From an uncultured Acidimicrobiales bacterium (GTDB taxonomy: Bacteria > Actinomycetota > Acidimicrobiia > Acidimicrobiales > SZUA-35), in the NCBI GenBank assembly GCA_938029215.1, contig CALHFG010000018.1, forward strand, positions 4,632 to 68,631: 64,000 bases of DNA, in the 5' to 3' direction. The notes beneath the pieces were generated by a model that saw only the letters and a program-made list of their open reading frames with translations, searched no databases and was not told where the DNA came from. Below, piece after piece: positions 190 to 48,554 of the stretch (positions are counted from its first letter, which is position 1; every line of letters begins with the position of its first letter). A program made the position numbers and the translations under genes.

Positions 190-1533
190 TCAGAAGGGTT
201 CTTCGTGGTGAATGGTGTGTCGTCTTCGCTGAGCGAGTGCCACTTGAGTCTTTCCCTTGTGGCAGGGGGTGCAGTAGAGACGCCCGTTTTCGGGGTTGGT
301 GTAGCCACCGTCTTGCCATTCGATTCGATGGTCGACCTGTTCACCGGGCCTATCGCAGCCGGGTGATCGGCAGGTCCGGTCTCGCAGGACCACCGCCATC
401 CGAGCAGCGCCGGTAAACAGGCGTTGGCTTCGCCCTAGCTCTACCTTTCGGGTTGCAGGGTCGAGAACGAATCGGGCGATTCGATGTTTGAGAGCAAGAC
501 GAAACGCTTCTCGGGGTAAGAGAGGTGTGCCCGTGGTGGTTTGGCATTGATATCCGGGACGGAAGACGTCGGTGGGGTCCGAAGCTGGGGCCCGTTCGGT
601 GGCGATCCACTCGGTGAACTTGTCGGCCTCCCGATCGAACGTCTCGACGTCCATGCAGATTGCAACCAGCGGCTCGGGAGACCTGCCGTCTTTGGGTGAA
701 GTATTGGCAAGCGTCGCGAGCAACCCGCAACCCCGTGCCATCCAGTACTTCTTGCCGCGGCGAACCACCGGCCGCAGGGTGTACTCAGAAAGATTGAGGT
801 GATCGTCCTCGGCTTTGATTTCGCTCCCGGATGTACCACCACCATCTTCAGCAGACTGGCGGGCCTGATCTACAAGTCGGAGGAGCCCCTGGCGGAGCAA
901 TTCGGCATCGCTGGTAAGCAGCAACCCCTTGATGGTGGTTGTCCCGTTCTTGTTATCGGTGAAACCGATCGTGAGATCTTTGTCTTCGGGGGCCTTGGCG
1001 TGAGGGTCGACATCCAAAGCTGCGAGGATCCACGCATCACACGCCAGGGCGAACTCGCTATAGGGCAGGTCTCGAGCCAGATCGACCAGCATCTTGTGGT
1101 CCCGTTCGAACAGTTCGGCTCGGGTACGAGTGCGGTTCCCAGGCAGGCACTGCCGAAACTTTTTGACGTGGGATTGGTTGAGCACACCTTCGGCAATGCC
1201 CTCCGCAATTGCATCAAATCGACGAGCGAGACGTCCCGTTGCCACGAGCCGATTACCTTCACTCTTTGCCATGTTGCACTCATGCGCCGCCCAGTTGGCA
1301 GGGTTGGAGTAGGGAGAGCCGGCAAGGCCGCCGTTGTCATCGTACTCGGCAATTTCACAACCGATAACTGCGGTTAGGTGCTCTCTTGCTTTGGTTAGAG
1401 CGGCGAGTCGTTCTGCACCAAGCGGGAGGGTTTCGGCGACATTTAGGAGTGCGATGATGTCTCCGATTTCCGCCATATATAAGTATAACAAGTGTTCGTA
1501 GATGTGCTCCTTAATGGCTCCAAAAGTTGCCAC
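190..1533 (-). CDS. HNH endonuclease-domain protein of the DUF222 / 13E12-repeat family (actinobacterial, multi-copy, mobile-like)
   Basis: 447-aa ORF with a C-terminal HNH motif CRSPGCDRPGEQVDHRIEWQDGGYTNPENGRLYCTPCH. The N-terminal region has the typical DUF222 architecture. Confidence 0.7.
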   Translation of the reverse strand: MATFGAIKEHIYEHLLYLYMAEIGDIIALLNVAETLPLGAERLAALTKAREHLTAVIGCEIAEYDDNGGLAGSPYSNPANWAAHECNMAKSEGNRLVATGRLARRFDAIAEGIAEGVLNQSHVKKFRQCLPGNRTRTRAELFERDHKMLVDLARDLPYSEFALACDAWILAALDVDPHAKAPEDKDLTIGFTDNKNGTTTIKGLLLTSDAELLRQGLLRLVDQARQSAEDGGGTSGSEIKAEDDHLNLSEYTLRPVVRRGKKYWMARGCGLLATLANTSPKDGRSPEPLVAICMDVETFDREADKFTEWIATERAPASDPTDVFRPGYQCQTTTGTPLLPREAFRLALKHRIARFVLDPATRKVELGRSQRLFTGAARMAVVLRDRTCRSPGCDRPGEQVDHRIEWQDGGYTNPENGRLYCTPCHKGKTQVALAQRRRHTIHHEEPF

Positions 1534-2363: not shown

Positions 2364-2882
2364 CTACTTGGCGATGAGGTCGAGTACGTCCTGTTCCAGA
2401 CTGCCGTACCCGGTTACCTCGAAGGTCCCGTCGTCGTTCAAGAGCACGTAGGTGCGCTGGCGAGTGACGCCAAATCGCTCCCACAACCCGCTGGTTTCGT
2501 CGGGGACATGTTCGAGGCTTTCAACGCCGGTGCGCTCGATGAACTCAAGCATCGACTCTTGGTCGGCAAGCCCGGGAACTCCTATGAAAGTGACCTGGTC
2601 ACCGTATTGCTGCTGCACCTCCACGACCGTGGGGGCTTCAGAACGTCAAAATGGTCACCACGGAGCCCACAGCCAGAGCACCACATCTTGCCCCTCGAGC
2701 GAACCAAGATCGACCGAGTTTCCTGCGAGGGAAGTGAACTCCCCGTCGAATGCAGACGCTGGCGGAGCTGTTGCTGGGGCCTGAGCCGACTCCCCCGTAG
2801 TGGATTCGGCACCGCACGCAGCCAGGGTCAACGCCAGACCGAGCCCTAGGGCGGCTCGTCGAAAGCGGTTGGAGCGGATCAT
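2364..2882 (-). CDS. TlpA/ResA/DsbE-family thioredoxin-fold thiol:disulfide oxidoreductase lipoprotein in which both active-site Cys codons are in-frame TGA. Either a candidate UxxU (SelL-like diselenide) selenoprotein or a pseudogene.
   Basis: ORFs 2655..3197 and 2364..2624 share one reading frame. Reading through gives MIRSNRFRRAALGLGLALTLAACG (lipobox) ... LEGQDVVLWLWAPW-TGA-PF-TGA-RSEAPTVVEVQQQYGDQVTFIGVPG... The TGAs are at 2655-2657 and 2646-2648 on the minus strand, exactly at the two Cys positions of the WAxWCxxCRxE motif. There is no other frame disruption. Confidence 0.5.
2618..2635 (-). promoter_or_regulatory. Candidate bacterial SECIS-like hairpin (CCCCCAC-GGUC-GUGGAGG) starting 10 nt after the second in-frame UGA
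   Basis: A 7-bp stem with one mismatch and a GGUC apical loop, located 10 nt after UGA2 and 19 nt after UGA1 on the mRNA strand. Confidence 0.3.
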
Positions 2883-3041
2883 GCAGGAGTGAACCGGCGA
2901 TTCACCGGACCTATTCCGAAAAGTACGTACGTTCTTCGACGAACCGACTGGGTGCCGGTGTCTACTATCGCGGTGGTGGAGAGTTACGGAAAGTCCAGCA
3001 CGGGATTCAAGTCGTTGGGAACCAGCCTCGAGCCGGACCAT

Positions 3042-4025
3042 ATGGACCTCGGAACGAACCGGACACCGGTGGAGAGCTTCTTCGTCTGTAGTGGTGCGCC
3101 TGCCCCGCTTCCGAGCGATTGGAGCCTCACGCTCGACGGCGACGCCGCTGGAGAGGTGAGAACCCTGACGCTCGCCGACCTTGAGGCACTGCCGCAACAG
3201 TCGGTTGACTCATGGCTCGAATGCGCGGGGAATGGCCGAGCGATGTATGAGCTCGTTGGTGGCTACCCCCGCCCTGAGGAGGCCAACGACACCGCCTGGA
3301 CTCTGGGCAGCATGGGTATGGCGACATGGACTGGCCCGCGTCTGTCCGACGTGATCAACCTGGCCCGTCCAACCGGAGATCTCGCCTGGATAGGTCCGAC
3401 CGGAATGGATGTGGAGAACCTCGAGGGAGAGCCCGTCCGGATGAGCCTGCCGGCCACAAAGGCGCTCCATCCGGACACGCTGGTTGCGCTTGGAATGAAC
3501 GATGAGCCATTGGTGCCAGCCCATGGCGCACCGGCCCGTCTGCTGGTGCCCGGCTGGATTGGCGCCTACTCGGTGAAATGGATCGACCGCTTGGAACTCT
3601 CAACCACGTGGGTTAGCTCCTACCGATCCGACGAGTACTACGTGAGGCGAACCGCTGACGGAACCAAGCTCGGGCCAGCGACCACACATCCGCTCAAATC
3701 GACGGTGGCGTTGCCATTCGGTGCCACCATCGCCGCTGGCCAAACCGAGACCTTGGGCTATGCGCGCGGTGGCGACGGCCCCATCGTGGAGGTGGAGTTC
3801 TCGGTTGATGACGGGGATTGGATGCCGTGCACCCTGCTGCCGCTCGCAAGTCCGTGGGCGTGGACCCCGTTTCGTTTCGAGTGGACCGCCGAGCCGGGTG
3901 AGCGACAGGTACGGACACGAGCGGTCACCGCGTCGGGTGAGACGCAGCCCGACACCGTTCCCTATAACCCTCACACGATCTTGTGGAATGCGGTGACCCC
4001 GCACCGAGTTCTGGTGCGAGCGTAG
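3042..4025 (+). CDS. Sulfite oxidase-family molybdopterin oxidoreductase (Mo domain plus dimerisation domain), no signal peptide
   Basis: Contains the LECAGNGR Mo-ligand cysteine motif and FFVCSGAP at the start of the Mo domain. The ORF opens at 2889 (GTG), but ATG 3042 (MDLGTNRTPVESFF) avoids overlap with the divergent gene, so the start is uncertain. Confidence 0.7.
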   Translation: MDLGTNRTPVESFFVCSGAPAPLPSDWSLTLDGDAAGEVRTLTLADLEALPQQSVDSWLECAGNGRAMYELVGGYPRPEEANDTAWTLGSMGMATWTGPRLSDVINLARPTGDLAWIGPTGMDVENLEGEPVRMSLPATKALHPDTLVALGMNDEPLVPAHGAPARLLVPGWIGAYSVKWIDRLELSTTWVSSYRSDEYYVRRTADGTKLGPATTHPLKSTVALPFGATIAAGQTETLGYARGGDGPIVEVEFSVDDGDWMPCTLLPLASPWAWTPFRFEWTAEPGERQVRTRAVTASGETQPDTVPYNPHTILWNAVTPHRVLVRA

Positions 4026-4066
4026 AACCTTCCTGTAAGCAGCATCCTCGATCTACGCTGGCGAAC

Positions 4067-5302
4067 GTGCCCGACCTCGATCTCGATTTCGTCCGTTCCC
4101 AATTTCCTGCCTTTTCCGAAGCCAGTCTCGACGGTTGGGCCTTCTTTGAAAATGCTGGTGGGTCCTACGCCAGCCGGCAGACGATCCAGAGATTGCACGA
4201 CTTCTATGTGAAAACCAAAGTGCAGCCCTACGCGCCTTACCCGGCTGCCTCCGAGGGCGGCCATCAGATGGATCTGGCGCACGCCCGCCTCGCCGGCCTC
4301 ATGAACGTGGCCGAAGATGAGCTTCACATCGGACCATCCACCAGCCAGAACACTTATGTCCTGGCTCACGCATTCCGTGCCGGTTGGTCTGAGGGCGACG
4401 AGATCATCGTCACCAATCAAGATCACGAAGCCAACTCGGGTGTCTGGCGACGGCTGGAATCCACCGGCATCGTTGTTCGGGAATGGACCGTCGACCCCGA
4501 GACCGGCGAGCTCAACGTAGGTGACTTGGAAGACCTGCTGTCCGCCCGAACCAAGCTCGTAGCGTTTCCCCACTGTTCGAACATCGTGGCCCACATCAAT
4601 CCGGTCAGCGAAATCTGTTCGCTCGTTCACGACGCTGGCGCGGTCGCGGTGGTTGATGGCGTCTCGGCGGCCCCGCATGGACTGCCCGACGTTGAGGCAC
4701 TTGGTGCCGACATCTACCTGTTCTCCGCCTACAAGACCTACGGACCTCATCAGGGGATCATGGTTGTTCGCCGTGCCATGGGCGATGCCCTACCGAATCA
4801 GAGCCACTGGTTCAATGATGGCCAGCCCCATAAGCGACTGGTGCCGGCAGGCCCCGACCACGCCCAAGTTGCGGCTTGCAACGGAATCGCCGACTACGTG
4901 GAAGCGCTTCACGACCATCATTTCGACTCCATAGCTGATGGCGCTGAGCGAGGCCGTCGGGTCCATGATCTGATGCGGAACCATGAGATAGAGCTGCTCG
5001 GTCCACTGGTGCAAATGCTCGATGACCGAAGCGACGTTCGAGTCCTCGGCCCGACCGACCCTCATACGCGGGTGCCGACGGTTGCGTTTGCGACCGAACG
5101 AGACGCCGGCGATGTTGTCCGTTCGCTGTCGGAAAGCAAGGTGATGGCGAGCTCGGGCCACTTCTATGCCCGCCGACTGGTAGAGGCTCTCGGCCAGCCA
5201 GCCAACCCGGGTGTGGTTCGGCTGAGCTTCGTGCACTACACCTCCGCCAGCGAAGTGGCCCAGGCAATGGACGCTCTAACCGGCGCGCTACATACGTCCT
5301 AG
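4067..5302 (+). CDS. Class-V aminotransferase-fold PLP enzyme of the SufS/CsdA (cysteine desulfurase) family lacking the catalytic Cys. Possibly a cysteine sulfinate desulfinase-like enzyme.
   Basis: Contains SAYKTYGP (the PLP-binding Lys region) and a C-terminus ASSGHFYARRL that aligns to SufS RTGHHCAMPL with Cys replaced by Tyr. The N-terminus VPDLDLDFVRSQFPAF resembles SufS starts. GTG 4067 is the chosen start; the ORF opens at 3983. Confidence 0.6.
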   Translation: MPDLDLDFVRSQFPAFSEASLDGWAFFENAGGSYASRQTIQRLHDFYVKTKVQPYAPYPAASEGGHQMDLAHARLAGLMNVAEDELHIGPSTSQNTYVLAHAFRAGWSEGDEIIVTNQDHEANSGVWRRLESTGIVVREWTVDPETGELNVGDLEDLLSARTKLVAFPHCSNIVAHINPVSEICSLVHDAGAVAVVDGVSAAPHGLPDVEALGADIYLFSAYKTYGPHQGIMVVRRAMGDALPNQSHWFNDGQPHKRLVPAGPDHAQVAACNGIADYVEALHDHHFDSIADGAERGRRVHDLMRNHEIELLGPLVQMLDDRSDVRVLGPTDPHTRVPTVAFATERDAGDVVRSLSESKVMASSGHFYARRLVEALGQPANPGVVRLSFVHYTSASEVAQAMDALTGALHTS

Positions 5303-5312
5303 GCTCACCCTC

Positions 5313-6365
5313 ATGAACAACTCCAGCGTGACGGTATCGCCATGGATCGCGGCCCTTCCCAAAGTTGAACTTCACGTCCACTTGGAGGGGTCAATGTCGG
5401 TCGCGACCGTTGAAGAACTCACCCGCCGGCACGGGATCGACCCAACCCCGGTGTGGCCCGACGGCCTACCGGAGCGGTTCTCCTTCGACGGCTTCCCCGA
5501 CTTCGCCAACCAGTTCTTCTACGGCCTCTCGCTTCTGCGCACAGGGGACGACCTCGCCACGGTTGTTGAAGACCTCGCCGTCAGCCTGGCCTCGCAGAAT
5601 GTCCGATACGCCGAAGTAACCACGACCGCCTACACCCACTTTCTCGGGCGCGGCGATCGAGTCGGGATGTCGGCAACTGAATACCGCGATGCTTTGAACG
5701 CGGGGCGTCGTCGGGCCCGCGACCACGGCGTGGAGATGGGTTGGGTGATCGACATCCCCCGCGATCTCGAGATGCCCGACAGCACGGTCACCATCGACTA
5801 CCTCGAGAGTGGTCTAACACCCGATGGCCTCGTCGCTCTCGGACTAGGCGGATACGAGGTTGGCTTCCCCGCAGGTCCGTACGCCGATCACTTTGCACGA
5901 GCCCGTGCCGTTGGACTTCATTCGGTTCCTCACGCCGGAGAAACCGAAGGCGCTCATTCCGTGCGTTCGGCTGTTGAAGACCTAGGCGCCGAGCGGATCG
6001 GCCACGGAGTCCGCTGTCTTGAAGATCCCGAACTCGTCGCCACTCTGGTCGATCAGCAGATCATGATGGAGGTCTGTCCCACATCGAATGATCTCCTTCA
6101 GGTGATCGAGCGGATCGAAGACCACGCGTTACCCGCCATGATGGCGGCCGGATTGCGAGTGTGCCTGAACACCGATGACCCTGGGTGGTTCGCTACCAAC
6201 TTGAACACAGAACTGGCGATCTCCAGCGCTTCGCTCGGGGTCACCGAAAGCCAACATCTCGCAATGCAGCTCGATGCGGTGGAGGCGTCTTTTGCCGAAC
6301 CGGTCGTGAAAGCCGCGATCCGGTCAGAACTTGCCGACGTCAGGCCGACGGACTCCAGAAATTGA
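5313..6365 (+). CDS. add: Adenosine deaminase
   Basis: Carries the PKVELHVHLEGS metal-binding signature and overall ADA-like sequence. A SufS-like gene and a sulfite oxidase gene sit immediately upstream on the same strand. Confidence 0.85.
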   Translation: MNNSSVTVSPWIAALPKVELHVHLEGSMSVATVEELTRRHGIDPTPVWPDGLPERFSFDGFPDFANQFFYGLSLLRTGDDLATVVEDLAVSLASQNVRYAEVTTTAYTHFLGRGDRVGMSATEYRDALNAGRRRARDHGVEMGWVIDIPRDLEMPDSTVTIDYLESGLTPDGLVALGLGGYEVGFPAGPYADHFARARAVGLHSVPHAGETEGAHSVRSAVEDLGAERIGHGVRCLEDPELVATLVDQQIMMEVCPTSNDLLQVIERIEDHALPAMMAAGLRVCLNTDDPGWFATNLNTELAISSASLGVTESQHLAMQLDAVEASFAEPVVKAAIRSELADVRPTDSRN

Positions 6366-6506
6366 TTGCCCGATACGTACGCTCGCCCACGGTGTGGTGT
6401 GCCGATGTTGTAGCCATAGTGTCCCCTTCTGACTGCTGCCTCTTTTCATAATAGCCACTGCGGTAATATGACAAGCAGTCAATTGGGGAGAAAAGTATGA
6501 GGCCGG

Positions 6507-7292
6507 CTACGGCTCCATCGTGAAGAAGCCGTCGGCAAGCGCTTGGCAGGCGATGCCATACAGGTTCCAATCGACCTTCTCGACCACAACCTCTTGCTTC
6601 GGCGGGCTGAATGCGGAGGTCGCATGGTTCGAAAGGCCATCGTTGAGAGCAATGATTGCGAGCACAAAGTGCTCCACAGTGACCCCCGGCTTTACCTTCA
6701 TTCCAAAGATGTCCGCGAACTCTTTGATCAGCTCTACATACGATGCAACGAGCCGATCGTGGCCCTCTTCAATGGCTGCGAGAATCTCAGGATCCGGAAC
6801 CGGCGCAGTATTTGCTGCCGCCACTAGACCGGTATAGAGACGCCACATTTCCGAATTGAGGCGATCATGGTTAAAGAATGCAACCGCCCGTATGACCTCG
6901 TCGCGAGCCCACCGTTTTCGATCGAGGTCGCCCGAGTTGATGTCGTCGCTGAGGTTGGCGAGCAATTCCAATGCCATCTCGCGGGTGGGACCGGCATTGT
7001 TTGCGGTGGTGGATTTCAGCAGGTGGAGAACCGTGGCGTGCCGAAGGTTCTCCTGCGGTGTCCGATCTGGATGCTCCCATGCTTCATAGGCGCTCCCCCG
7101 TGGCACTTCGGCCAGCACGAGAACTCGATCGATGCGGATGGCGTCGACGCCAAAGGACGTTCCGTTTGCCAGCAGTTCCTGGACCGATTGGTCGATCATG
7201 CGCGAGTGGACCTCGGCAGGTGCAAACTTCCGTTTCCGTCCAGCTCGTCGCTTTGGGGGCTCGGCCGGATCAGTTGTTGAATCTTCTACCAA
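6507..7292 (-). CDS. TetR-like transcriptional regulator (divergent N-terminal HTH)
   Basis: The N-terminus ...FGVDAIRIDRVLVLAEVPRGSAYEAW fits the TetR HTH pattern (T..IA..AGVS.G.LY.HF). The rest is helical with no other recognisable motif. Confidence 0.45.
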   Translation of the reverse strand: MVEDSTTDPAEPPKRRAGRKRKFAPAEVHSRMIDQSVQELLANGTSFGVDAIRIDRVLVLAEVPRGSAYEAWEHPDRTPQENLRHATVLHLLKSTTANNAGPTREMALELLANLSDDINSGDLDRKRWARDEVIRAVAFFNHDRLNSEMWRLYTGLVAAANTAPVPDPEILAAIEEGHDRLVASYVELIKEFADIFGMKVKPGVTVEHFVLAIIALNDGLSNHATSAFSPPKQEVVVEKVDWNLYGIACQALADGFFTMEP

Positions 7293-7349
7293 GACATTTC
7301 TCCACTCTGATCATAGACTTTTTCAGCTGAACAGCAGCTGAGCAGTGTT

Positions 7350-8108
7350 CTAGAGGCCACGTAGTACGAGCGGCACCCCTGCCATAACGAGCCCACCCGC
7401 GAGCAGCACCAGCACCGTTTGCGCTGAGAGCTTGCCTGCGCTGAGCGCACCAATACGTCCGCCAATGACGGCGCCGACGATGACGAAGGGTGCAAAGGAC
7501 CACCGCGGGTTGCCTGCCAAGGCATGGCCCACGGCCGCGGCAAGTCCAGAACTCGCTCCGATCAGCGTTGTGGTCGCAGCCGCTCGATGAGCCGACAACT
7601 GTTGCAGCCTGGCAATGAGCGGCACCGTCACAAGACCCGCTCCGACACCGAGCGCTCCTGACAGCACGCCGATCAACGCACCCGACCCGGTGAGCGCCAT
7701 CACCTTTGGTTCCTTGACCGCACCGTCGGATCGTCCCGGCGACGGACCAAAAACGACGAACACCGCTAGTGCGATAAGCAGAAAGCCGATGATCAGATCG
7801 AACGCTCGTTGCGGGATCCGACTAGCCAACCACGCAGCCGACAAAAACGACACCGGGATCGCTCCAATCACAAACCATCGAGCGGTTTGGCGATCGACCA
7901 TGCCCGAACGGTCATAGGTGTAGGCCCCGACCGCTTGGACAAACAGTGTCGTAATCACGCTGGTCCCGACGGCGGTCGCGCCACCTAGGTCGAAAAACAA
8001 CACCAGGCCCGACACCATAAGGAAGCCCCCACCGGCACCAATGATCGACCCGTAGACGCCAACCAAAAGGGCGAGGACAAAGAGCCCAGCGGCGGTTTCC
8101 ACGTTCAT
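7350..8108 (-). CDS. TauE/SafE (DUF81) family sulfite/sulfoacetate exporter-type membrane protein
   Basis: Gly-rich, ~8-TM protein with the internal duplication typical of the family (GSIIGAGGGFLMVSGLV ... GALGVGAGLVTVPLI). Confidence 0.75.
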   Translation of the reverse strand: MNVETAAGLFVLALLVGVYGSIIGAGGGFLMVSGLVLFFDLGGATAVGTSVITTLFVQAVGAYTYDRSGMVDRQTARWFVIGAIPVSFLSAAWLASRIPQRAFDLIIGFLLIALAVFVVFGPSPGRSDGAVKEPKVMALTGSGALIGVLSGALGVGAGLVTVPLIARLQQLSAHRAAATTTLIGASSGLAAAVGHALAGNPRWSFAPFVIVGAVIGGRIGALSAGKLSAQTVLVLLAGGLVMAGVPLVLRGL

Positions 8109-8180
8109 CGCGGCCGAGCGTAGATGACCAGCACCAACAATTCGGCCAAGGCAGCGAACCTCGCCCAGTAAATTGAACCG

Positions 8181-9821
8181 ATGAGCGCTGCGCCAGATCT
8201 ACGGGAAGAACGGGAAGCGCTCGAAGAGGCCCGGATTGCGGTTCAGGAGAAGTTGCGAGTTCTTGCCCAGGTCGAAGGCGGGGCAGCCGACGCACTTACC
8301 CAGGAATACATCGACTCGGTGGTTCGTGGTGCGGTCGAGAGGCTCCAGCAGGAGCTGGTCGTTTTCGGAAGAATCGATGACCCTCATCCGTGGAGAATCG
8401 GCTTGTACGGGATCGACCGGGCTGGGGACCAGTTGGTCGTCGATTGGCGAACGCCATTGGCCCGGACCTTCTATCAGGCTGGATTCGACGAACCGCTCGG
8501 GCTCACTCGACGGGTGACCTACGTCGGCACGATCGAGGACCTGTTCGTGGAGGACTATCTCACCGGCGAGGTCGCCGGTTCCTCGCCGCTCATGCGAGAA
8601 CTCAACCGAAGTCGAGGCCAACAGATGAGAGCGGCGGTGGCAACGCTTCAAAGCGAGCAGGACCAGCTCGTTCGTCTAGCGCCAACCAAGAAGCTGGTAC
8701 TTCGGGGCGGGCCAGGAACCGGCAAGACGGTCGTTGGCCTGCACCGCGCTGCCTGGCTCGTCTACAACGACACCCGACTCACCGCCGGCCGGATTCTCAT
8801 CATCGGGCCAAGCGACAAGTTCCTGCGATTCGTTGCAGCTGTCATGCCCACGTTGGGTGAAGCACGGATTGTGCAAACCACCTTCGACCGACTGCTCGGG
8901 CCATCAACGGCAGCTGGCAGCGATGAGCGTTGGCTCGGGATTCTCGATCGGTATGAGGCCAGCCTGCTCGACCCGCACGAGGTCATCGTGGGCTACACCC
9001 GTCTCCGAATCGATGTCATTACCGACGCAGTGGAGCGAGCGTCCAAGCGCTCACTGCCCTGGCGTGACAGACGCAAGGTCTTCAACCAGATCCTTGCCAA
9101 TGGTCGCGACCTCAAGATTGGTGACGTCAGCCAAGCGACCGCCAAGATCTGGCCTCCCCGATCGGCCCGGGCCGCAATGAAACAGCTCTCGCAGCGTTCC
9201 ACTCTGGAGCGACTAGGAGCGCCGAGCGATCTGATCGATGACTGGGTGTCGAACCCAACCGATGGCGCCCTCATCGACGAGGTGCGAGCGCGTTTTGAAG
9301 GGGTCCCATCGCTGTATGGCCATGTGATCGTCGACGAAGCTCAAGACCTCAACCTGCTTCAGTTGCGGGCCATACAGCGCCGCTCAACGGGCTTCACGCT
9401 CGTCGGCGACGACGCCCAGATGTCGGCGCCCAATGGCTTGGGACTGCGCGGTGCAGCCCGTCGGCTGGGAGTCGATGTCGAAGAGTTGGCTACCGCCTAC
9501 CGAATGTCCGCCGAGATCGCGGACTGGCTGAACAATTGGGCGCGCACGAGTGGAGTCGACGCCGTGGTGTTGCTGGGCATCCGGGCCAACGGCATAGAGG
9601 TCCGAGAGATCTCGGGCAACTCGACGGTGGTGGCGGACCATCTTGAACGGCTCAGCCGATCATGGACCAACGTTTCGCTGATAACCGCCGAGGACGCCTG
9701 GAGTCACAAGGGCGTTGAGTACGACGGAGTCGTCGTTGACACCACCGATATGACGCCGGCGCAGGTATACATCGCTGCATCTCGGGCCGCTCACGAGTTG
9801 GTCATCGTGCACCCAGGTTGA
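8181..9821 (+). CDS. helD: HelD-like (helicase IV / UvrD-like) ATPase, RNA-polymerase-associated in Actinobacteria
   Basis: A coiled-coil N-terminus is followed by Walker A VLRGGPGTGKTV, a UvrD-like 1A/2A layout and the C-terminal motif VYIAASRAAHELVIV. Confidence 0.7.
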   Translation: MSAAPDLREEREALEEARIAVQEKLRVLAQVEGGAADALTQEYIDSVVRGAVERLQQELVVFGRIDDPHPWRIGLYGIDRAGDQLVVDWRTPLARTFYQAGFDEPLGLTRRVTYVGTIEDLFVEDYLTGEVAGSSPLMRELNRSRGQQMRAAVATLQSEQDQLVRLAPTKKLVLRGGPGTGKTVVGLHRAAWLVYNDTRLTAGRILIIGPSDKFLRFVAAVMPTLGEARIVQTTFDRLLGPSTAAGSDERWLGILDRYEASLLDPHEVIVGYTRLRIDVITDAVERASKRSLPWRDRRKVFNQILANGRDLKIGDVSQATAKIWPPRSARAAMKQLSQRSTLERLGAPSDLIDDWVSNPTDGALIDEVRARFEGVPSLYGHVIVDEAQDLNLLQLRAIQRRSTGFTLVGDDAQMSAPNGLGLRGAARRLGVDVEELATAYRMSAEIADWLNNWARTSGVDAVVLLGIRANGIEVREISGNSTVVADHLERLSRSWTNVSLITAEDAWSHKGVEYDGVVVDTTDMTPAQVYIAASRAAHELVIVHPG

Positions 9822-24535: not shown

Positions 24536-25783
24536 TTGACCACGACCGATACCCGATCGACCGATCGGCCGCAACGATCGGACCGACAGGTCATCGCGTA
24601 CCTCGCGTTCACGGGCATTCTGCTGGCCCTTGGTATCGATATTGCCCTCCCGGCATTCGACGAGATTCGGCCAGCGCTCGGACTGGCCGAAGGGTCGAAT
24701 CGCATTACCCAGGTCATCACCGTCTACTTCCTGGGCATGGGCCTTGGACAGTTGGTATGGGGCCCGGTTTCGGACCGGTTCGGCCGACAGCGGGCGATGC
24801 TCACTGGGGTCGGTCTCTATGTCGGGTGCGCTGTTGCTTCCGCACTCGCCCCGTCCTTCACCGTGCTCCTACTGGCTCGGTTCATCTGGGGACTCGGTGC
24901 AGCGGCGCCAACCGGCCTACGGCCAGCGATCGCACGCGATCTCTATCGCGGCGATCAGATGGCACGTGTCATGAGCATGGTTATGGCGATCTTCATGATC
25001 GGCCCCATTCTCGCTCCGTTGCTCGGTGAGGTGATCCTCAGCGTGGTGTCATGGCGGTACGTGTTTGTGTTCTGCGCTCTCGCTGGAGCCGGACAGATGG
25101 CCTGGACGGTCCAGTTTGGCGAAACCCTCCCGAAGGATCAGCGTCAGCCGTTGGAGTTCCGCACCACCGGCCGTGCGTTCGTTCGGGTCGTGACAACCCG
25201 ACAGACCATCGCCTACACCTTGGCCCTGGCGTTCGCCTATAGCGGGTTCTACGTCTACCTTGCCAGCACTCAACCGATCATGGACACCATCTACGGGCGG
25301 GCGAATCAGTTCGCGATCGTGTTCGGTGCATCGGGAATTCTCATGGCTGGAGCCTTCGTTCTGTCCAATCGCCTCTTCGCTCGAATCGGCACCGCCGCGA
25401 CCGTGAATGCGTCGGCGGTGGTCTTTATCGCACTGGCCACCGCTCAGCTCGCTCTCGTTCTGTCCGCGGGGGGTACACCATCGTTCTGGCCGTGGATCGC
25501 ACTGGTCACCGCAGCAAACCTGGTTGGCGCTCCATTAGGTCCTGCCGCATTCACTCTCGGCCTCGAACCAATGGGTGATTTGGCAGGCACCGCAGCCGGT
25601 GTGATGGGCTTTCTTTCCATGACGATCGCATCGGGCCTGTCCGCGATCGTGAACTCACAGATCGACCTCACCGTTACGCCAATGGCCCTCGGCTACGGCC
25701 TTTTCGGACTGCTGTCGCTGCTCGCCCTCATCCTTGCTCAGCGCCCTGGTCCAAAGGAACTGCGCAACACCGTCGACCCCTAG
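24536..25783 (+). CDS. MFS transporter, Bcr/CflA-like drug-resistance subfamily
   Basis: Contains VYFLGMGLGQLVWGPVSDRFGRQ (motif A region). 12 TM. Confidence 0.75.
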   Translation: MTTTDTRSTDRPQRSDRQVIAYLAFTGILLALGIDIALPAFDEIRPALGLAEGSNRITQVITVYFLGMGLGQLVWGPVSDRFGRQRAMLTGVGLYVGCAVASALAPSFTVLLLARFIWGLGAAAPTGLRPAIARDLYRGDQMARVMSMVMAIFMIGPILAPLLGEVILSVVSWRYVFVFCALAGAGQMAWTVQFGETLPKDQRQPLEFRTTGRAFVRVVTTRQTIAYTLALAFAYSGFYVYLASTQPIMDTIYGRANQFAIVFGASGILMAGAFVLSNRLFARIGTAATVNASAVVFIALATAQLALVLSAGGTPSFWPWIALVTAANLVGAPLGPAAFTLGLEPMGDLAGTAAGVMGFLSMTIASGLSAIVNSQIDLTVTPMALGYGLFGLLSLLALILAQRPGPKELRNTVDP

Positions 25784-28700
25784 GGTTCGTCGGACTCGGC
25801 ACGAGTCTTTGCCGCGGTCGATGCCAGAAGATCAATCGCCCGAGCCGCAAGCGGATCTTGCATCTCCAACGCCCCCGAAACTTTCTCGATCGCTTCAATC
25901 AATCGATCCAAATCACCGCTCGAGTGCGGTTTGGTTGCTTCGGCCGGGCCGCCAGAAGATGGCGCGACGCCGAATCCTTGCCCCATCGAGGTGCTGACAC
26001 CCTCGATTGCCGCTACCACCCTGGTGACGGGATCGCTGTCGCCGCCACCCAGTCGTTGCCGACGGTTGAACGTGTCCAAGATCTCATCCCAACGCACCCG
26101 TTGCTCATCGGTCATCCGGCCCCGGAGGTCTGCGAGTTTCAGCAGGTTCGCCTCGGCGGCGCCGGTCAGACTTTGACTCTCGGCGATGTAGTGGTCGTCT
26201 AGTAGTTGCTGGACTTCCTCCTCGGTCATCGCAGGAACAATCTTGGAGGCCAATCGGGCCATGTTGCGGTAGGAACCCTGGAGTAAGAAAGGCGGCTCGG
26301 TTCGGTAGGAATCTTCAGTTGCAGCCGACGCTATGTACTGTCGATTGACCGCCAACACCGTCTGCTGAGTGGTAATGAGGTGCCTCAACGCAGCGATCAT
26401 CTCGTTGATCTCCGCACTGCTGTATGAGCCGGCCAGTGTCGACTCTGGAAGAGGTTCGCCCGCAGCCGCACGAAGGAACGCATTGAAGTCTTCCGGTGCG
26501 CTACCTGCTAACGGCGCAAGAACAGGATTCGCGGTCAACGCATTCTCGAGATAGCTCCTGGCGAACACTTCGTCATTGCCGCCCACGACATCGCCAAGGT
26601 TGTAGGTGTCGGCTCGGTTGGCCAACATGTCGGGGATCTGGAAGCGTTCGCCGCTCTCGGTGTAAGGATTTCCCGCCATGATGACAGCGAAGCGTTTGCC
26701 CCGAAGGTCAAAAGTTCGACTCTCGCCGTTCCAGACACCCTCGATTCGCCGTTGCCCATCGGTCAGGGAAATGAACCGCTGCAGGAACTCCGGGTTTGTG
26801 TGCTGAATGTCATCGAGGTACAGAATGACGTTGGTGCCAACAGCAAACGACAGGTTGATCCGATCGATCTCGCGAGCTGCGGTGGCGCTGGGAGCCTGAC
26901 CCGGATCCAGCGACGTCACGTCGTGACCCAAACCAGGGCCCGAGACCTTTACCAACGCCATGCCCAGACGATCCGCCAGATACTCCACCAGCGTGGTCTT
27001 TCCATAGCCTGGCGGCGAGAGCAACATCAACAGCCCGGACCGAGCGCCGGTGCGATCTTCGACCGTGCCGATCTGGCGAGCCAGGTTGTCACCAATGAGC
27101 GGCAGGTACACCTTGTCGATCAGTTGGTTGCGAACAAAACCCTCCGGAACCGAGGGCTCGAGGTCGTCGATGCGCAGTCGTTTCCGGAGATCTTCCAGCG
27201 TGCTACGCCGGGCCTCTCCGAACCGCCGATGCGCAGGAACGACCCTGGCAACGTGGTCGGAGACCACGGCAAAGACGTCATCGACGCGCCCTTCAAGTGA
27301 CCCTCCCACAAGCGTGGGGTGCTGACCAATGAGGCCGGAGGCAACGAAACCTAGATCGGCGTCGTAGGTCCGTCGAGGAAGATCTGGCGTGAGCAGAGCA
27401 ACGGCAACTTCGTCAACGAATGGAAGCTCGTTGGGTTGCGCTGTTCTCTGCAGGAAGTCGGTGAGAACGACGCTTGCAGCTTCGGTATCGTCGCCGATGC
27501 GCTCGAGAAGCTCTGCGACCGCACGGTTCTTGCGCATCGACTGGGTCAGCCCAGCCGCGCCTGGAGTGGTAGCAAAGCCCAAACCCTTCGGGTGCGTGAG
27601 CTCGGACATGAGGTAGCGAGCCGCAGCTGCTGAGAGGTTGAAATCATCGCCGACCTCGACCGACAGCGCCGATGACACCGCTGCCGACACCGACAAGGCT
27701 TCGGCTGCTGTTCCTCGATCGATCCACTGCTGGCGTTTCGAGTCGTCGGCTGCGGCCCACGCCAGAATCGCCCGACCACGTTCGGCGCCACTGGTCACCA
27801 GCGGGCCAGCGGCCAGAAGAGCCGGGCCCGCGGCTTCAGCGATCTTGGCAGCGTCCACATCATGAACGCCACGGTCATATCCCTCGTCCAAACGGTTATC
27901 GACCTCGGACTGCATTATGGGCATGACCCGATCAGCGATCGTCTCGGTGGCGCCGGGCCCGGGTGCGGTGAAGAGCCGCTCCATCTGGTCGCGGTCGCTC
28001 ATGAGTCCCGCCATCACATCGAACGCCAGGAAGGTCGATCGGTACAGATCGGCGGTTTCGGAAGCAAAGGGCTGACTCCAGAGATCCTTCGCTCCGTCCA
28101 GTTCGTCTGAGTGCACCGGCAACCGCAGTTCGGTGCCTGTCAGGACTGCGTCTAGCTGATCTTCACTGGGCACGATGGTGAGTTCGCGGGAACGGCGATC
28201 CACGCTGAACCGATGTCGGCCCAGCTTTACCGCATCACCGTCATACAGGTCCTGTCGATCGCGAAGGCTACGGGCCGCGCCATCCCGGGCAGCTCCCAAA
28301 CGAGATCCCAGTTCATCAGCCCGCACGGGCTCACCAAGTTCACGGAGGTCTTCGACCAGTTTCCGGATCCGACCCACCATTGGATCGGCAGCGAAGAACC
28401 CGTTGATTTCGTCGGCAGAGCCCAACTGGGACGCCCGTTGAATAACTCGATCGAGGGTCCGGGTCGCAGCAGAAACCAGCCGTTCACTCCGTTGCTGCCG
28501 GTCATCGACGAGTTGTTGACGCTTTCCGCTCAGCGCCTCGGACACCTGATCGCGGCGCGATGCCAGTTCGTCAAGTTGTGCGTCGGTGCGTGGTCCGGCG
28601 GTTTCCAGCTGTTCCAACTGCAGCAGCAAACGAGCAAGCGCCTCATCACACTCTTCGGGAGTTCCTGCCCGACCAACCGCGGTGGCGATCGACTGTCCGA

Positions 28701-30813: not shown

Positions 30814-31025
30814 ACAACAAGTCTTCCCTCCGAACCCTCAACGACTCGCCATGAGCGAGGGACCGAGGTTGCCGCCGCGCCAGCAAGGCAGCACGCAACG
30901 ACACCAAGACTGTTTGAGCGGAGCGAGTCCGGAGCGACCCGACCTGATCAATGTCGAACGAGCCCGGGAACGGTTCCGGAAAGAGAGCGTTCGCCACGGT
31001 CCGCTTGAGGCGAGCGAAGGCAATG

Positions 31026-39419: not shown

Positions 39420-40808
39420 TCAGGATGAACCGGAAGCGTGCGCCAGCTGGGTCCAGGCGGCGTATCCGCCGAGGATGTCAGACACATCGCTGAACCCCGC
39501 ATGACGGAGAAGGCTCGCCCCCACCGATGACCGGTAACCGCCGGCGCAGAACACCACCGTGGGCGCCGCAGGGTCGAGTTCGTTCAGTCGGTCCCTCAAC
39601 TGGCTAACAGGAATCGACTCCGCTCGATCGATCGATCCCAGTGCGTGCTCGCCCGGGTTCCGAATGTCGATGAGCTGCAGTCCGGCCACCCCATCCCGGC
39701 GGCTGTCAAACTCGATCGCAGTCATGCGCGATGCTCTCCGGACCTTCTCGGGGTTGCTCGCCAACACTGCCAGAGGGGCCTGAAGAAAGCCGACGACTCG
39801 GTCGAATCCGATGCGGGCGAGCCGATTCTTCGCCTCTCGTTCAAATCCCTCGTCAACAACAAGAACGATGTCCGTGTCGGATGGAACCGTCGAGCCAGCG
39901 AATTCGGCGTAACGACCGTTGAGACCGACATTCACCGATCCAATCAGATGGCCGGCGGCAAAGTCTTCAGGATCGCGCCCGTCGAGCAGAACGGCTCCGC
40001 TGGACATGAGACCTTCGACTGCGGTGAGGGTCAGGGCTCGCGGTTGCCCATGTTCGTCGAGCAGGTCTCGGTCCTTGCGGTTGAGGATCGCGTCGTACAC
40101 GAAGTAGCTCGGCGCTGGTGGCTGCCCCTCGGTAACCATCTCGATGAACGCTTCCTTAGTGGGGGCCATGAGCGCATAGTTCGTCAACCGCTGCTCACCG
40201 ATCGTGGACGACGTTTCTGTGGAGAGATTCTTTCCGCACGCCGATCCAGCACCATGTCCAGGGAACACTCTGGTGGCATCGGGTAGACGAAGAAGCTTGT
40301 TGTGCAAGCTGTCATACAGCTTCTCGGCGAGTTCGTCCTGGGTAAAGCCGATGGAGGCCAGCAAATCTGGCCGGCCGACGTCTCCGATGAATAGGGTGTC
40401 GCCGGTGAGAACCGCGTACGGAGTTTTATCGGATGCATCTTCGAACACGACGATGCTGAGCGATTCGGGCGTATGGCCCGGGGTATGAAGGATCTCGAGC
40501 TCCACCGATCCCAGCGAAATGCGTTCACCGTCACGGAGTTTCCGAGACCGAAACTCGGTCTCGGCAACTTCTGAGTACGCGATGTCGGCACCTGTAGCGG
40601 CTGCCAACTCGAGGTGACCAGATAAGAAGTCGGCATGGAAGTGCGTTTCGATCACGAGCTCGATCGTGAGACCGTGGTCTGCAGCGTCAGTGACGTACTC
40701 GTCGATATCTCGGCGTGGGTCAACAACCACGGCACGACCTGTGGTTTGATCGCCGATGAGGTACGACGCTTGGGAGAGGCAATCTAAGTAGTACTGCGTG
40801 AATTTCAC
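39420..40808 (-). CDS. MBL-fold metallo-hydrolase fused to two rhodanese domains (persulfide dioxygenase-rhodanese fusion, CstB/Blh-like)
   Basis: The N-terminus has ETHFHADF...HTPGHTPES (a metallo-beta-lactamase fold). The C-terminus has the rhodanese active-site loop VVFCAGGYRSS. Confidence 0.75.
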   Translation of the reverse strand: MKFTQYYLDCLSQASYLIGDQTTGRAVVVDPRRDIDEYVTDAADHGLTIELVIETHFHADFLSGHLELAAATGADIAYSEVAETEFRSRKLRDGERISLGSVELEILHTPGHTPESLSIVVFEDASDKTPYAVLTGDTLFIGDVGRPDLLASIGFTQDELAEKLYDSLHNKLLRLPDATRVFPGHGAGSACGKNLSTETSSTIGEQRLTNYALMAPTKEAFIEMVTEGQPPAPSYFVYDAILNRKDRDLLDEHGQPRALTLTAVEGLMSSGAVLLDGRDPEDFAAGHLIGSVNVGLNGRYAEFAGSTVPSDTDIVLVVDEGFEREAKNRLARIGFDRVVGFLQAPLAVLASNPEKVRRASRMTAIEFDSRRDGVAGLQLIDIRNPGEHALGSIDRAESIPVSQLRDRLNELDPAAPTVVFCAGGYRSSVGASLLRHAGFSDVSDILGGYAAWTQLAHASGSS

Positions 40809-40834
40809 CGTGTGGTCCTTTCAGGATGTGTTTG

Positions 40835-41419: not shown

Positions 41420-41427
41420 GACGCCTC

Positions 41428-45427: not shown

Positions 45428-45535
45428 TCTTCCAGTGTGGACTGCGGAACTCTATTTGGTCAGGGCCCAAAGTCAAACGAGCGCTGTGATCTAAGGCCCT
45501 AGGAAAAGCGTAGTGATGAAGTCACAATCAAGACT

Positions 45536-46858: not shown

Positions 46859-46881
46859 CGCGGGCCGGTTGCTGTGACGAT

Positions 46882-48548: not shown

Positions 48549-48554
48549 CGTTGA

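What the first reader, a model, noticed from the sequence alone, without database searches (positions are those of the whole stretch)
2612..2645. SECIS-like hairpin immediately downstream of the two in-frame UGAs
On the mRNA strand, 10 nt after the second UGA, the sequence CCCCCAC-GGUC-GUGGAGG can form a 7-bp stem (one C/A mismatch) capped by a GGUC loop.

The apical loop sits about 17-20 nt from UGA2 and 26-29 nt from UGA1. That is within the spacing range used by bacterial SelB-dependent SECIS elements, and the loop carries the G/U content seen in fdhF-type apical loops.

One element serving two closely spaced UGAs would itself be unusual.
Basis: inference. Interest (0 to 1): 0.5.

Follow-up and report, generated by a model that had tools for sequence, protein, structure and literature searches.

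The report
Selenocysteine insertion hairpin, two UGAs
The hairpin is a genuine, evolutionarily conserved bacterial selenocysteine-insertion (SECIS) signal inside a secreted thioredoxin-like lipoprotein gene of an Acidimicrobiia bacterium, and in this lineage it apparently serves two UGA codons nine bases apart, a rare arrangement that has been reported in other selenoprotein families.

Summary
On the minus strand, the hairpin G-CC-C-CCAC[GGUC]GUGG-A-GG-U (2636..2617) lies 26 nt after UGA1 (2657-2655) and 17 nt after UGA2 (2648-2646). The 172-codon gene (2882..2364) encodes a DsbE/DsbF-like redoxin lipoprotein whose CxxC site reads U-P-F-U.

One sequence proves little. The fold z-score is -1.3, and 18% of all TGAs in the window are followed by a hairpin that passes the generic model.

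Comparison settles it. I collected 84 distinct UGA-containing homologues without constraining anything downstream of the UGA.
- 78 keep GGUC at the same position.
- The stem is 85% paired, against 26-53% in shifted controls.
- Four stem pairs show double changes, including synonymous wobble-wobble covariation.
- Twelve Cys homologues lack the hairpin, including one with the same peptide.

Layout and loop match the E. coli fdhF SECIS. Most relatives are UxxC. The UxxU form is one clade of 8 distinct sequences (47-63% identity), all with intact reading frames.

This is a new member of a known kind: UxxU motifs, and a single SECIS proposed to serve both UGAs, have been described in other families. 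No sel genes or tRNA-Sec lie in the sequence held, so Sec versus SECIS-dependent Cys insertion is untested.

The parts
2364..2882 (-). Selenoprotein gene of 172 codons. It has a lipoprotein-type signal peptide (lipobox L-A-A-C, Cys23 codon at 2816-2814) followed by a thioredoxin-fold Redoxin/DsbE-DsbF-like domain with active site W-U-P-F-U-R.
   Evidence: Translation. Pfam Redoxin 48 bits and AhpC-TSA 40.9 bits. PDB M. tuberculosis DsbF 3IOS E=1e-22 and DsbE/Mpt53 1LU4 E=5e-19. NCBIfam TlpA/ResA-like, below the equivalog cut-offs. The reading frame stays open and conserved for 97 codons after UGA1 in all 8 distinct UxxU homologues.
2655..2657 (-). UGA1, in place of the first Cys of CxxC. It is the ancestral recoded codon of the family, present in all 84 homologues because the scan required it. 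It lies 26 nt upstream of the apical loop.
2646..2648 (-). UGA2, in place of the second Cys of CxxC. It is found only in one clade (8 distinct sequences); the other family members have UGY (Cys) here. It lies 17 nt upstream of the apical loop.
   Evidence: (column 12: A 8, T 26, C 50).
2617..2636 (-). Conserved SECIS core of 20 nt. Lower stem: G.U, C-G, C-G (2636-2634 with 2617-2619). C.A mismatch: 2633/2620. Upper stem of 4 bp: CCAC/GUGG (2632-2629 with 2624-2621). Apical tetraloop GGUC: 2628-2625.
   Evidence: Fold: (-8.5 kcal/mol). Covariation. RNAalifold on the 8 UxxU sequences recovers it independently. Absent in Cys homologues.
2625..2628 (-). Apical loop GGUC. G31 and U32 (numbered from the U of UGA1) are invariant in 84 of 84 sequences. 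G30 is kept in 78 of 84 and C33 in 77 of 84. Both of these are third codon positions, and they have the lowest entropy of all wobble sites in the segment.
   Evidence: The E. coli fdhF SECIS has the same tetraloop.

Best explanation
**What it is.** The hairpin at 2636-2617 (minus strand) is a bacterial selenocysteine insertion sequence (bSECIS) embedded in the coding region of a DsbE/DsbF-like redoxin lipoprotein gene of an Acidimicrobiia bacterium.

**Proposed mechanism (inferred by analogy with E. coli fdhF).**
1. The exposed G-U of the GGUC tetraloop, on a 4-bp upper stem interrupted by a mismatch, is bound by the C-terminal domain of SelB.
2. This tethers the SelB.GTP.Sec-tRNA(Sec) complex so that it can deliver Sec when a UGA enters the ribosomal A site.
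3. In most family members the element recodes one UGA (UGA1, the first Cys of CxxC), 26 nt upstream of the loop.
4. In the clade that contains this window, the second active-site Cys codon has also become UGA (UGA2). It lies 17 nt from the loop, almost the fdhF spacing of 18 nt.
5. The same hairpin is the only conserved local structure, so it most likely serves both codons. One SelB complex would act at UGA1, and a second would rebind the still-folded hairpin during the next three elongation cycles and act at UGA2.
6. The product would be an exported thiol-disulfide oxidoreductase with a U-x-x-U (diselenide-capable) active site.

**What is shown.** The hairpin is present, it is selected at the RNA level, it is linked to UGA, and the two-UGA gene is under purifying selection.

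**What is inferred.** SelB binding, Sec rather than Cys at each UGA, and reuse of one element for both codons.
For: **1. Unbiased comparative set.** The metagenome scan required only W-x-W-A-P-W-UGA-CC, with nothing downstream constrained. It gave 84 distinct in-frame homologues, and 78 have GGUC at nt 30-33.

**2. Stem covariation.**
- Stem 22-29/34-41 is 85.0% paired, against 25.9-53.2% for partners slid by 1-3 nt.
- The covariation score is 0.310 against at most 0.112 in the slid controls, and 0 of 500 shuffles reach it.
- Pairs 24-39, 26-37, 27-36 and 28-35 each show double changes, for example C-G/G-C/G-U, U-A/C-G and G-C/A-U.

**3. Selection at the RNA level.**
- Pair 27-36 joins two third-codon positions and covaries synonymously.
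- With Pro at codon 9 and Ala at codon 12, the counts are CCU..GCA 30, CCC..GCG 10 and CCG..GCC 1.
- With Pro and Val, the counts are CCU..GUA 6 and CCC..GUG 5.
- Loop wobble sites have the lowest entropy, 0.37 and 0.50 bits against 0.8-1.9 elsewhere.

**4. Link to UGA.**
- The energy of the fixed hairpin has a median of -7.4 kcal/mol in the UGA forms, and -8.5 in the window. It is at least +1.9 in all 11 stretches taken from the Cys loci L003-L013, one of which (L009) is a mis-picked, out-of-frame stretch.
- The Cys homologue L138 has the identical peptide EAPAVVEV. It uses GCC and GUC codons, which lose the first loop G (GGUC becomes CGUC) and break a stem pair, giving -1.3 kcal/mol.
- 62 of 81 UGA forms pass the generic bSECIS model, against 1 of 12 Cys forms and an 18% background.
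- All 120 best protein-database relatives are CxxC, and their peptide at this site is variable, for example APGMAAA, APDVVEA and APTIAEA.

**5. Published model.** All criteria of the bSECIS model quoted in PMC13188914 are met for both UGAs.

**6. Resemblance to fdhF.** The layout is 2-3 bp, an interruption, 4 bp and a GGUC loop. This equals the fdhF minimal SECIS, whose sequence I verified in 5419 of 5426 E. coli genomes.

**7. The UxxU clade.** It is monophyletic in a neighbour-joining tree and only 47-63% identical, with both UGAs and the frame intact. RNAalifold finds this hairpin as its only conserved local structure.

**8. The Sec trait in the class.** Sec machinery occurs in the class Acidimicrobiia, as reported for Actinomarinales (bioRxiv 10.64898/2026.04.03.716425).
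Against: - **No machinery in the sequence held.** There is no tRNA-Sec and no selA, selB or selD in the window or in the ~0.85 Mb held in all, i.e. the window plus the 137 fetched loci. The Sec trait of this organism is therefore not shown.
- **Weak single-sequence evidence.** The thermodynamic z-score is not significant, and generic SECIS-like hairpins are common in this G+C-rich DNA.
- **No match to a curated family.** No Rfam family matches.
- **Spacing.** The UGA1-to-loop spacing of 26 nt differs from the 18 nt of E. coli. Use of one element for two UGAs is inferred only from the absence of a second conserved hairpin.
- **Limits of the counts.** Counts are per sequence, not per evolutionary event. 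The coding constraint on the same bases cannot be fully separated from RNA selection, except at the synonymous sites.
- **Variant hairpins.** About a quarter of family members use a differently placed or differently shaped hairpin, so the element is not uniform.
Confidence: 0.8

Rival explanations
1. The hairpin is a SECIS and recruits SelB, but one or both UGAs are decoded as cysteine by a selC*-type tRNA (tRNA-ReC, a tRNA-Sec-like tRNA charged with Cys) rather than as selenocysteine. The mature protein would then be CxxC, UxxC or CxxU.
For: PMC13582414 reports that tRNA-ReC-like tRNAs are significantly more frequent in genomes with UXXU motifs (~56% against ~2.3% in other Sec-type genomes). 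The paper notes that either or both UGAs may then be read as Cys. Nothing in the window or the loci identifies the tRNA.
Against: No such tRNA was found in the ~0.85 Mb held, although the tRNA genes need not be linked to this gene. The family has kept UGA at position 1 across very divergent members, which is most simply explained by an advantage of Sec. The related order Actinomarinales carries canonical selC, selA and selD (bioRxiv 10.64898/2026.04.03.716425).
Confidence: 0.1
2. The hairpin is the SECIS for UGA1 only, which is its ancestral job. UGA2 would be decoded by another route (near-cognate read-through, or an unrecognised second signal), or it would largely terminate translation.
For: Across the family the element evolved with a single UGA at 26 nt. 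Rebinding of a second SelB complex within three codons is untested. In E. coli, SECIS function is sensitive to spacing (own knowledge, not checked here).
Against: - UGA2 sits at 17 nt from the loop, 1 nt off the fdhF spacing of 18 nt and inside the 16-37 nt range of the model.
- No second conserved local hairpin exists in the UxxU clade.
- UGA2 and the 93 downstream codons are conserved across 8 distinct sequences that are only 47-63% identical. That argues against termination or leaky read-through.
- Family members function with the loop 34-35 nt from the UGA, so the spacing tolerance in this lineage is wide.
Confidence: 0.08
3. The stem-loop is a by-product of amino-acid and codon-usage constraints on helix alpha-1 after the active site (A-P-A/T-V-A/V-E-V) and has no RNA function. 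On this reading the gene is a pseudogene, or it is read through by an altered genetic code.
For: The bases are all coding. The single-sequence z-score is insignificant. Related sequences can exceed shuffle controls without any structure, as the count of structure pairs itself warns.
Against: - Covariation is synonymous between two wobble positions, and the loop wobble bases are near-invariant.
- Cys homologues with variable peptides, or even the identical peptide, lack the hairpin.
- The slid-partner controls, which preserve relatedness, are far lower.
- The ORFs are intact and under purifying selection, so this is not a pseudogene.
- The window's other long ORFs that gave Pfam domain matches were read with TGA counted as a stop.
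Confidence: 0.02

Closest known systems
E. coli fdhF SECIS (minimal 17-nt SelB-binding hairpin GGUUGCAGGUCUGCACC)
   Same: - It lies in the coding region just 3' of the recoded UGA.
- It has the identical GGUC tetraloop on a 4-bp upper stem, then an interruption, then 2 more pairs.
- UGA2 is 17 nt from the loop, against 18 nt in fdhF.
   Different: - The interruption is a C.A 1x1 mismatch, or a 5' bulge in some relatives, instead of the bulged U17.
- UGA1, the family's main recoded codon, is 26 nt from the loop.
- The fdhF lower helix reaching back to the UGA has no conserved counterpart here: pairs 17-19/43-45 are only 12-64% paired.
- The stem sequences are unrelated.
- SelB binding is untested.
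Prx-like thiol:disulfide oxidoreductase and Redoxin-family selenoproteins (PF00578 with UxxC/UxxU; PF08534 with UxxC), as catalogued in PMC13188914 and PMC9312934
   Same: It is a thioredoxin-fold protein that matches both Pfam families above their cut-offs. Sec replaces the Cys of the CxxC redox motif. The UxxU variant with two Sec is already listed for the PF00578 family.
   Different: - I could not compare directly with the catalogue's representative sequences (WP_010940744.1, HEU0032618.1).
- The present family is specifically DsbE/DsbF-like and comes from Acidimicrobiia, with a lipoprotein signal.
- For the PF08534 entry, only UxxC is listed in the review.
SelL (Prx-like selenoprotein with a UxxU diselenide, found in fish, invertebrates and marine bacteria)
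   Same: The UxxU motif sits at the CxxC position of a thioredoxin fold. A diselenide bond has been demonstrated for SelL (PMC2397514). From memory of Shchedrina et al. 2007, which the library does not hold, bacterial SelL uses one in-frame SECIS for both UGAs.
   Different: It is not a SelL family member by sequence: NCBIfam SelL_rel_redox scores 18.5 bits against a cut-off of 120. The fold subgroup differs (DsbE/TlpA-like rather than Prx-like 2), and this protein is exported as a lipoprotein.
UXXU-type Group 4 [NiFeSe] hydrogenases (PMC13582414)
   Same: There are two UGAs separated by two codons, and one conserved downstream SECIS with G in the first loop positions. The authors propose that a single element controls both UGAs.
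   Different: - The protein is unrelated, and there the Sec residues are Ni ligands.
- In that family the common single-Sec form is CXXU, so the added UGA lies upstream.
- Here the ancestral form is UxxC, and the added UGA lies closer to the SECIS.
Mycobacterium tuberculosis DsbF (PDB 3IOS) and DsbE/Mpt53 (PDB 1LU4)
   Same: These are the closest solved structures, at E = 1e-22 and 5e-19. They are actinobacterial extracytoplasmic thioredoxin-fold proteins with the same W-C-P-x-C active-site context.
   Different: They are Cys proteins with no UGA and no SECIS. Mycobacterial homologues at the DNA level lack the hairpin.

Membership tests
Bacterial SECIS (consensus model as quoted in PMC13188914) | Stem-loop in the coding region immediately downstream of an in-frame UGA | tested here: met
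Bacterial SECIS (consensus model as quoted in PMC13188914) | Apical loop of 3-9 nt on an upper stem of 4-16 bp | tested here: met
   4-nt loop and 4-bp upper stem.
Bacterial SECIS (consensus model as quoted in PMC13188914) | G in one of the first two loop positions, usually followed by G or U | tested here: met
   The loop is GGUC. G31 and U32 are invariant in 84 of 84 sequences, and G30 is kept in 78 of 84.
Bacterial SECIS (consensus model as quoted in PMC13188914) | [quoted passage not shown] | tested here: met
   26 nt for UGA1 and 17 nt for UGA2.
Bacterial SECIS (consensus model as quoted in PMC13188914) | Minimum free energy of -7.5 kcal/mol or lower | tested here: met
   -8.5 kcal/mol for the 20-nt core and -11.8 for the 34-mer.
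Bacterial SECIS (consensus model as quoted in PMC13188914) | Conserved and covarying in Sec-containing orthologues, and absent from Cys orthologues | tested here: met
Bacterial SECIS (consensus model as quoted in PMC13188914) | Bound by SelB and required for Sec insertion | not testable with these tools
   This needs a binding assay, a reporter assay or 75Se labelling.
Bacterial SECIS (consensus model as quoted in PMC13188914) | Host genome encodes selA, selB, selC and selD | tested here: inconclusive
   None were found in the window or in the 137 fetched loci. These genes need not be linked to the selenoprotein gene, and the whole genome was not available.
fdhF-type SECIS of E. coli | GGUC tetraloop with exposed G23/U24 on a 4-bp stem | tested here: met
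fdhF-type SECIS of E. coli | Single bulged U (U17) below the upper stem | tested here: not met
   There is a C.A 1x1 mismatch at the equivalent place. In the family this position is mostly C.A (45 of 84), sometimes paired and sometimes a 5' bulge.
fdhF-type SECIS of E. coli | Fixed spacing: 11 nt from the UGA to the hairpin base and 18 nt to the loop | tested here: not met
   For UGA2 the values are 9-10 nt to the base and 17 nt to the loop. For UGA1 they are 18-19 nt and 26 nt.
Rfam SECIS families | Match to a curated covariance model | tested here: not met
   There were no hits at gathering score and none at E <= 10 on 2560-2700. Bacterial SECIS elements are poorly represented in Rfam (bioRxiv 10.64898/2026.04.03.716425).
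SelL / SelL-related redox proteins | Sequence membership (NCBIfam NF040769) | tested here: not met
   18.5 bits against a cut-off of 120.
Thioredoxin-fold Redoxin/AhpC-TSA selenoproteins (UxxC/UxxU) | Pfam PF08534 or PF00578 domain with Sec at the CxxC position | tested here: met
   48 and 40.9 bits against cut-offs of 26.6 and 26. The UGAs align with the Cys of CxxC in 120 of 120 homologues.
Actinobacterial DsbE/DsbF extracytoplasmic oxidoreductases | Sequence similarity to DsbF/DsbE plus an export signal | tested here: met
   PDB 3IOS E = 1e-22 and 1LU4 E = 5e-19. A lipobox is seen by eye in the window protein and in most UxxU relatives. Activity was not tested.

The most novel reading that the evidence does not exclude
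Both UGAs are read as selenocysteine through the single fdhF-like hairpin. The product would be an exported DsbE/DsbF-type lipoprotein with a U-x-x-U (diselenide) active site, an extracytoplasmic diselenide oxidoreductase in Actinomycetota.

The family as a whole would also be a natural spacing series for one SelB/SECIS system. The loop lies 17, 26 and 34-35 nt from a recoded UGA in different members. This would show that SelB can reload on an intact SECIS within three codons, and that it tolerates a twofold range of distance.
Probability: 0.55. Interest if true: 0.5.

Novelty: new member of a known kind. Interest (0 to 1): 0.4.

Why it matters
**Annotation.** Standard gene callers split this gene at the UGAs, and all 120 best protein-database relatives are Cys forms. 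A widespread selenoprotein family of aquatic and soil Acidimicrobiia is therefore probably under-annotated.

**Mechanism.** The family offers a ready-made natural experiment on how far from a UGA a SECIS can act, with spacings of 17, 26 and 34-35 nt. It also bears on whether one SECIS can serve two UGAs nine bases apart, a question raised but not settled for UXXU hydrogenases (PMC13582414).

**Biochemistry.** An exported UxxU thioredoxin-fold protein would be a new setting for a diselenide redox centre.

Tried and rejected
1. **Rfam.** Neither the gathering-score search of the whole window nor the E <= 10 search of 2560-2700 gave a SECIS hit; only spurious lncRNA matches appeared.
2. **Thermodynamic significance of the single hairpin.** It is not significant. 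I rejected this as a criterion because fdhF fails it too.
3. **Extension of the stem by a lower helix (17-19 with 43-45), as in the single-sequence fold.** It is not conserved: 12%, 36% and 64% paired.
4. **A second hairpin dedicated to UGA2.** None is conserved in the UxxU clade.
5. **A long-range helix pairing UGGUGACCN (which contains UGA1) with the Y-G-D-Q codons ~55 nt downstream.**
   - It is 89% paired in UxxU forms and 68% in UxxC forms, against at most 54% in slid controls.
   - The 5' side was fixed by my search pattern, however.
   - The only variable synonymous pair does not covary: Pro-wobble A stays opposite Tyr-wobble C.
   - I treat it as a coding by-product.
6. **Other selenoprotein genes with the same GGUC hairpin, sought in the ~0.85 Mb held.** The 6 candidates are all spurious or are gene junctions. 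In-frame TGA candidates in the window were also unconvincing.
7. **tRNA-Sec and selA, selB, selD in the window and loci.** None were found. The one SelB-like hit, in L086, is a generic GTPase domain in an unrelated locus.
8. **Conserved gene neighbourhood.** There is none.
9. **First protein search with the single sequence.** It found only one relative, because of the word-index limit. A profile search was needed.
11. **The SelL paper (Shchedrina et al. 2007).** The library does not hold it.
Full report
**What is at the coordinates.** The relevant strand is the minus strand.
- An ORF starts at ATG 2882 and ends at TAG 2366-2364. It is interrupted by two in-frame TGA codons at 2657-2655 (UGA1) and 2648-2646 (UGA2).
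- Read through both codons, it gives a 172-residue protein: MIRSNRFRRAALGLGLALTLAAC... WAPW-U-PF-U-RSEAPTVVEVQQQYGDQ....
- The N-terminus looks like a lipoprotein signal peptide (lipobox LAAC, seen by eye).
- The rest matches Pfam Redoxin (48 bits) and AhpC-TSA (40.9 bits).
- The nearest solved structures are the M. tuberculosis extracytoplasmic oxidoreductases DsbF (3IOS, E = 1e-22) and DsbE/Mpt53 (1LU4, E = 5e-19).
- The two UGAs occupy exactly the two Cys positions of the CxxC redox motif.
- It has a C.A mismatch (2633/2620) and an extra G.U pair (2636/2617).
- It lies 10 nt after UGA2. The loop is 17 nt from UGA2 and 26 nt from UGA1.
- RNAfold gives it as the minimum-energy and centroid structure (-11.8 kcal/mol for 2612-2645; -8.5 kcal/mol for the 20-nt core).

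**Is one sequence enough? No.**
- The z-score against dinucleotide-preserving shuffles is -1.34.
- In this 60% G+C window, 18% of all TGA trinucleotides are followed by a hairpin that satisfies the generic bacterial SECIS model.
- As a positive control, I verified the E. coli fdhF SECIS sequence in 5419 of 5426 E. coli genomes.
- The fdhF element also scores only z = -0.91.

**Comparative evidence: the sequence set.**
- A genome scan found two Acidimicrobiales MAG loci with UGA at the active site. L001 reads U-PH-U and L002 reads U-PT-C.
- L001 has the identical hairpin.
- L002 has CCCCUGC-GGUC-GCAGAGG, which is two compensatory pair changes with the loop and the mismatch kept.
- I then scanned metagenomes with a pattern that specifies only W-x-W-A-P-W-UGA-CC and leaves everything downstream free.
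- With the window and the two MAG loci, these give 84 distinct in-frame segments. They align without gaps as alignment A1.

**Comparative evidence: the counts.**
- GGUC is at nt 30-33 (U of UGA1 = 1) in 78 of 84 sequences. G31 and U32 are invariant.
- For the stem 22-24/39-41 plus 26-29/34-37, 85.0% of cells are paired. The figure is 25.9-53.2% when the 3' partners are slid by 1-3 columns.
- The covariation score is 0.310 against at most 0.112, and 0 of 500 shuffles reach the observed values.
- Four of seven pairs show changes on both sides.
- RNAalifold on its own predicts the three central pairs, all with compensatory changes.

**Separating RNA selection from protein selection.**
- Pair 27-36 joins the wobble base of codon 9 to the wobble base of codon 12, and it covaries synonymously.
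- With Pro and Ala at these codons the combinations are CCU..GCA (30), CCC..GCG (10) and CCG..GCC (1), against 4 non-pairing. With Pro and Val they are CCU..GUA (6) and CCC..GUG (5).
- The two loop bases that are third codon positions (columns 30 and 33) have the lowest entropy of all wobble sites in the segment, 0.37 and 0.50 bits.

**Comparison with Cys-containing homologues.**
- In all 11 stretches taken from the Cys loci L003-L013, the same hairpin register has positive energy, at least +1.9 kcal/mol. One of these, L009, is a mis-picked out-of-frame stretch. The median is -7.4 in the UGA forms.
- Only 1 of 12 Cys forms has any model-like hairpin, against 62 of 81 UGA forms.
- A profile search of the protein database returned 120 best relatives, all CxxC. 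Their peptide at this place is variable (APGMAAA, APDVVEA, APTIAEA and others), including Met, Ile or Leu where all 84 UGA forms have Val (GUC).
- One Cys homologue (L138) happens to encode the same peptide, EAPAVVEV. It uses GCC and GUC codons, which lose the first loop G (GGUC becomes CGUC) and break a stem pair, giving -1.3 kcal/mol.
- The hairpin is therefore selected at the RNA level and is tied to the presence of UGA.

**Variants within the family.** These calls show the following.
- Some members replace the C.A mismatch by a pair or by a one-base 5' bulge.
- L072, L081, L109 and L136 carry a perfect six- or seven-pair hairpin displaced 9 nt (three codons) downstream. Its loop is GGUC (GGCC in L136) and lies 35 nt from UGA1.
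- A subfamily with ...APGVAQLAR... uses a different 7-bp hairpin with an AGUUG-type loop, 34 nt from UGA1.
- A few members fold with a GUU triloop.
- The lower helix suggested by the single-sequence fold is not conserved.

**The two-UGA form.**
- Column 12 of the alignment is A in only 8 of the 84 distinct sequences; the rest have UGY.
- These 8 (window, L001, L026, L041, L045, L083, L090, L129) form one clade in a neighbour-joining tree (no support values were computed).
- They are 47-63% identical to each other. All keep both UGAs and an open frame for 96-97 further codons, and most keep a lipobox.
- This is purifying selection on a gene with two UGAs, not decay.
- RNAalifold on this clade finds the same hairpin as the only conserved local structure.
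- There is no separate element for UGA2.
- UGA2 lies 17 nt from the loop, 1 nt off the fdhF value of 18 nt. UGA1 lies 26 nt from the loop, the spacing used by the whole family.

**Comparison with what is known.**
- The review PMC13188914 quotes the bacterial SECIS model: a loop of 3-9 nt, an upper stem of 4-16 bp, G in the first two loop positions, 16-37 nt from the UGA, and MFE of -7.5 kcal/mol or lower. All of these are met for both UGAs.
- The layout of 2-3 bp, an interruption, 4 bp and a GGUC loop is that of the fdhF minimal element. Here, though, there is a 1x1 mismatch instead of the bulged U, and the spacing for UGA1 is different.
- Thioredoxin-fold selenoproteins with UxxC are a well-known class. 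UxxU is already listed for the Prx-like thiol:disulfide oxidoreductase family (PMC13188914, PMC9312934). It was also seen in GOS sequences (PMC2398784).
- SelL has a demonstrated diselenide (PMC2397514).
- A single SECIS controlling both UGAs of a UXXU motif was recently proposed for Group 4 [NiFeSe] hydrogenases. The same paper cautions that tRNA-ReC could insert Cys instead (PMC13582414).
- The present protein is not SelL by sequence: NF040769 scores 18.5 bits against a cut-off of 120.
- Sec machinery has been reported in another order of the class Acidimicrobiia (bioRxiv 10.64898/2026.04.03.716425).

**What remains open.**
- No tRNA-Sec and no selA, selB or selD were found in the window or in the ~0.85 Mb held in all.
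- The organism's Sec trait, the identity of the inserted residue at each UGA, and SelB binding are therefore all inferred.
- The gene has no conserved neighbourhood.

**Verdict.** The 'one element, two UGAs' aspect is probable, is uncommon, and has precedent. I class it as a new member of a known kind, of moderate interest.

Noticed in passing
window 27548 (minus strand) and ~25 nt downstream, inside ORF 25780-30837: A TGA that is out of frame with the 1685-aa ORF is followed, at nearly the family spacing, by GUGCGGUCGCAG. This is the same UGC-GGUC-GCA core as the family SECIS consensus. It is probably a chance match.
   Followed up: no
window 2659-2653 and 2595-2589 (minus strand): GGUGACC, which contains UGA1, is complementary to GGUCACU about 55 nt downstream.
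- More generally, the W-U-P codons can pair with the Y-G-D-Q codons (89% paired in UxxU forms and 68% in UxxC forms, against at most 54% in slid controls).
- This would enclose both UGAs and the SECIS in a larger stem.
- There is no covariation at the one informative synonymous pair, and the 5' side was fixed by my scan pattern.
   Followed up: partly
L072, L081, L109, L136; and L056, L058, L071, L082, L098, L113, L128, L130, L019, L043: Family members differ in SECIS placement or shape. In the first group the GGUC hairpin is moved 9 nt downstream, so the loop is 35 nt from the UGA. In the second group there is a different 7-bp hairpin with an AGUUG-type loop, 34 nt from the UGA.
   Followed up: partly
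window 2889-8198 and 39420-52115: The surroundings are rich in sulfur-related genes.
- A sulfite-oxidase-type molybdopterin oxidoreductase lies divergent from the selenoprotein gene (2889-4025 +).
- A class-V aminotransferase, of the cysteine desulfurase / selenocysteine lyase type, is at 3983-5302 +.
- A TauE/SafE exporter is at 7350-8198 -.
- A metallo-beta-lactamase plus rhodanese protein is at 39420-40820 -.
- Two SulP permeases are at 41428-43191 - and 50436-52115 -.

This arrangement is not conserved next to the gene in other loci.
   Followed up: partly
window 190-1533 (minus strand): An HNH endonuclease with a DUF222 domain, a type common in Actinomycetota, lies just downstream of the selenoprotein gene. 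The 252-aa plus-strand ORF at 1597-2355 between them has no Pfam match.
   Followed up: no
window 2882-2814 (minus strand): The signal peptide MIRSNRFRRAALGLGLALTLAAC contains an R-R pair ahead of the hydrophobic stretch. Tat rather than Sec export of the selenoprotein is therefore conceivable. This rests on inspection only.
   Followed up: no
protein database: None of the 120 best database relatives of the family carries U or is a UGA form. The UGA forms are evidently missing or split in public gene calls, so the family is probably under-annotated.
   Followed up: partly
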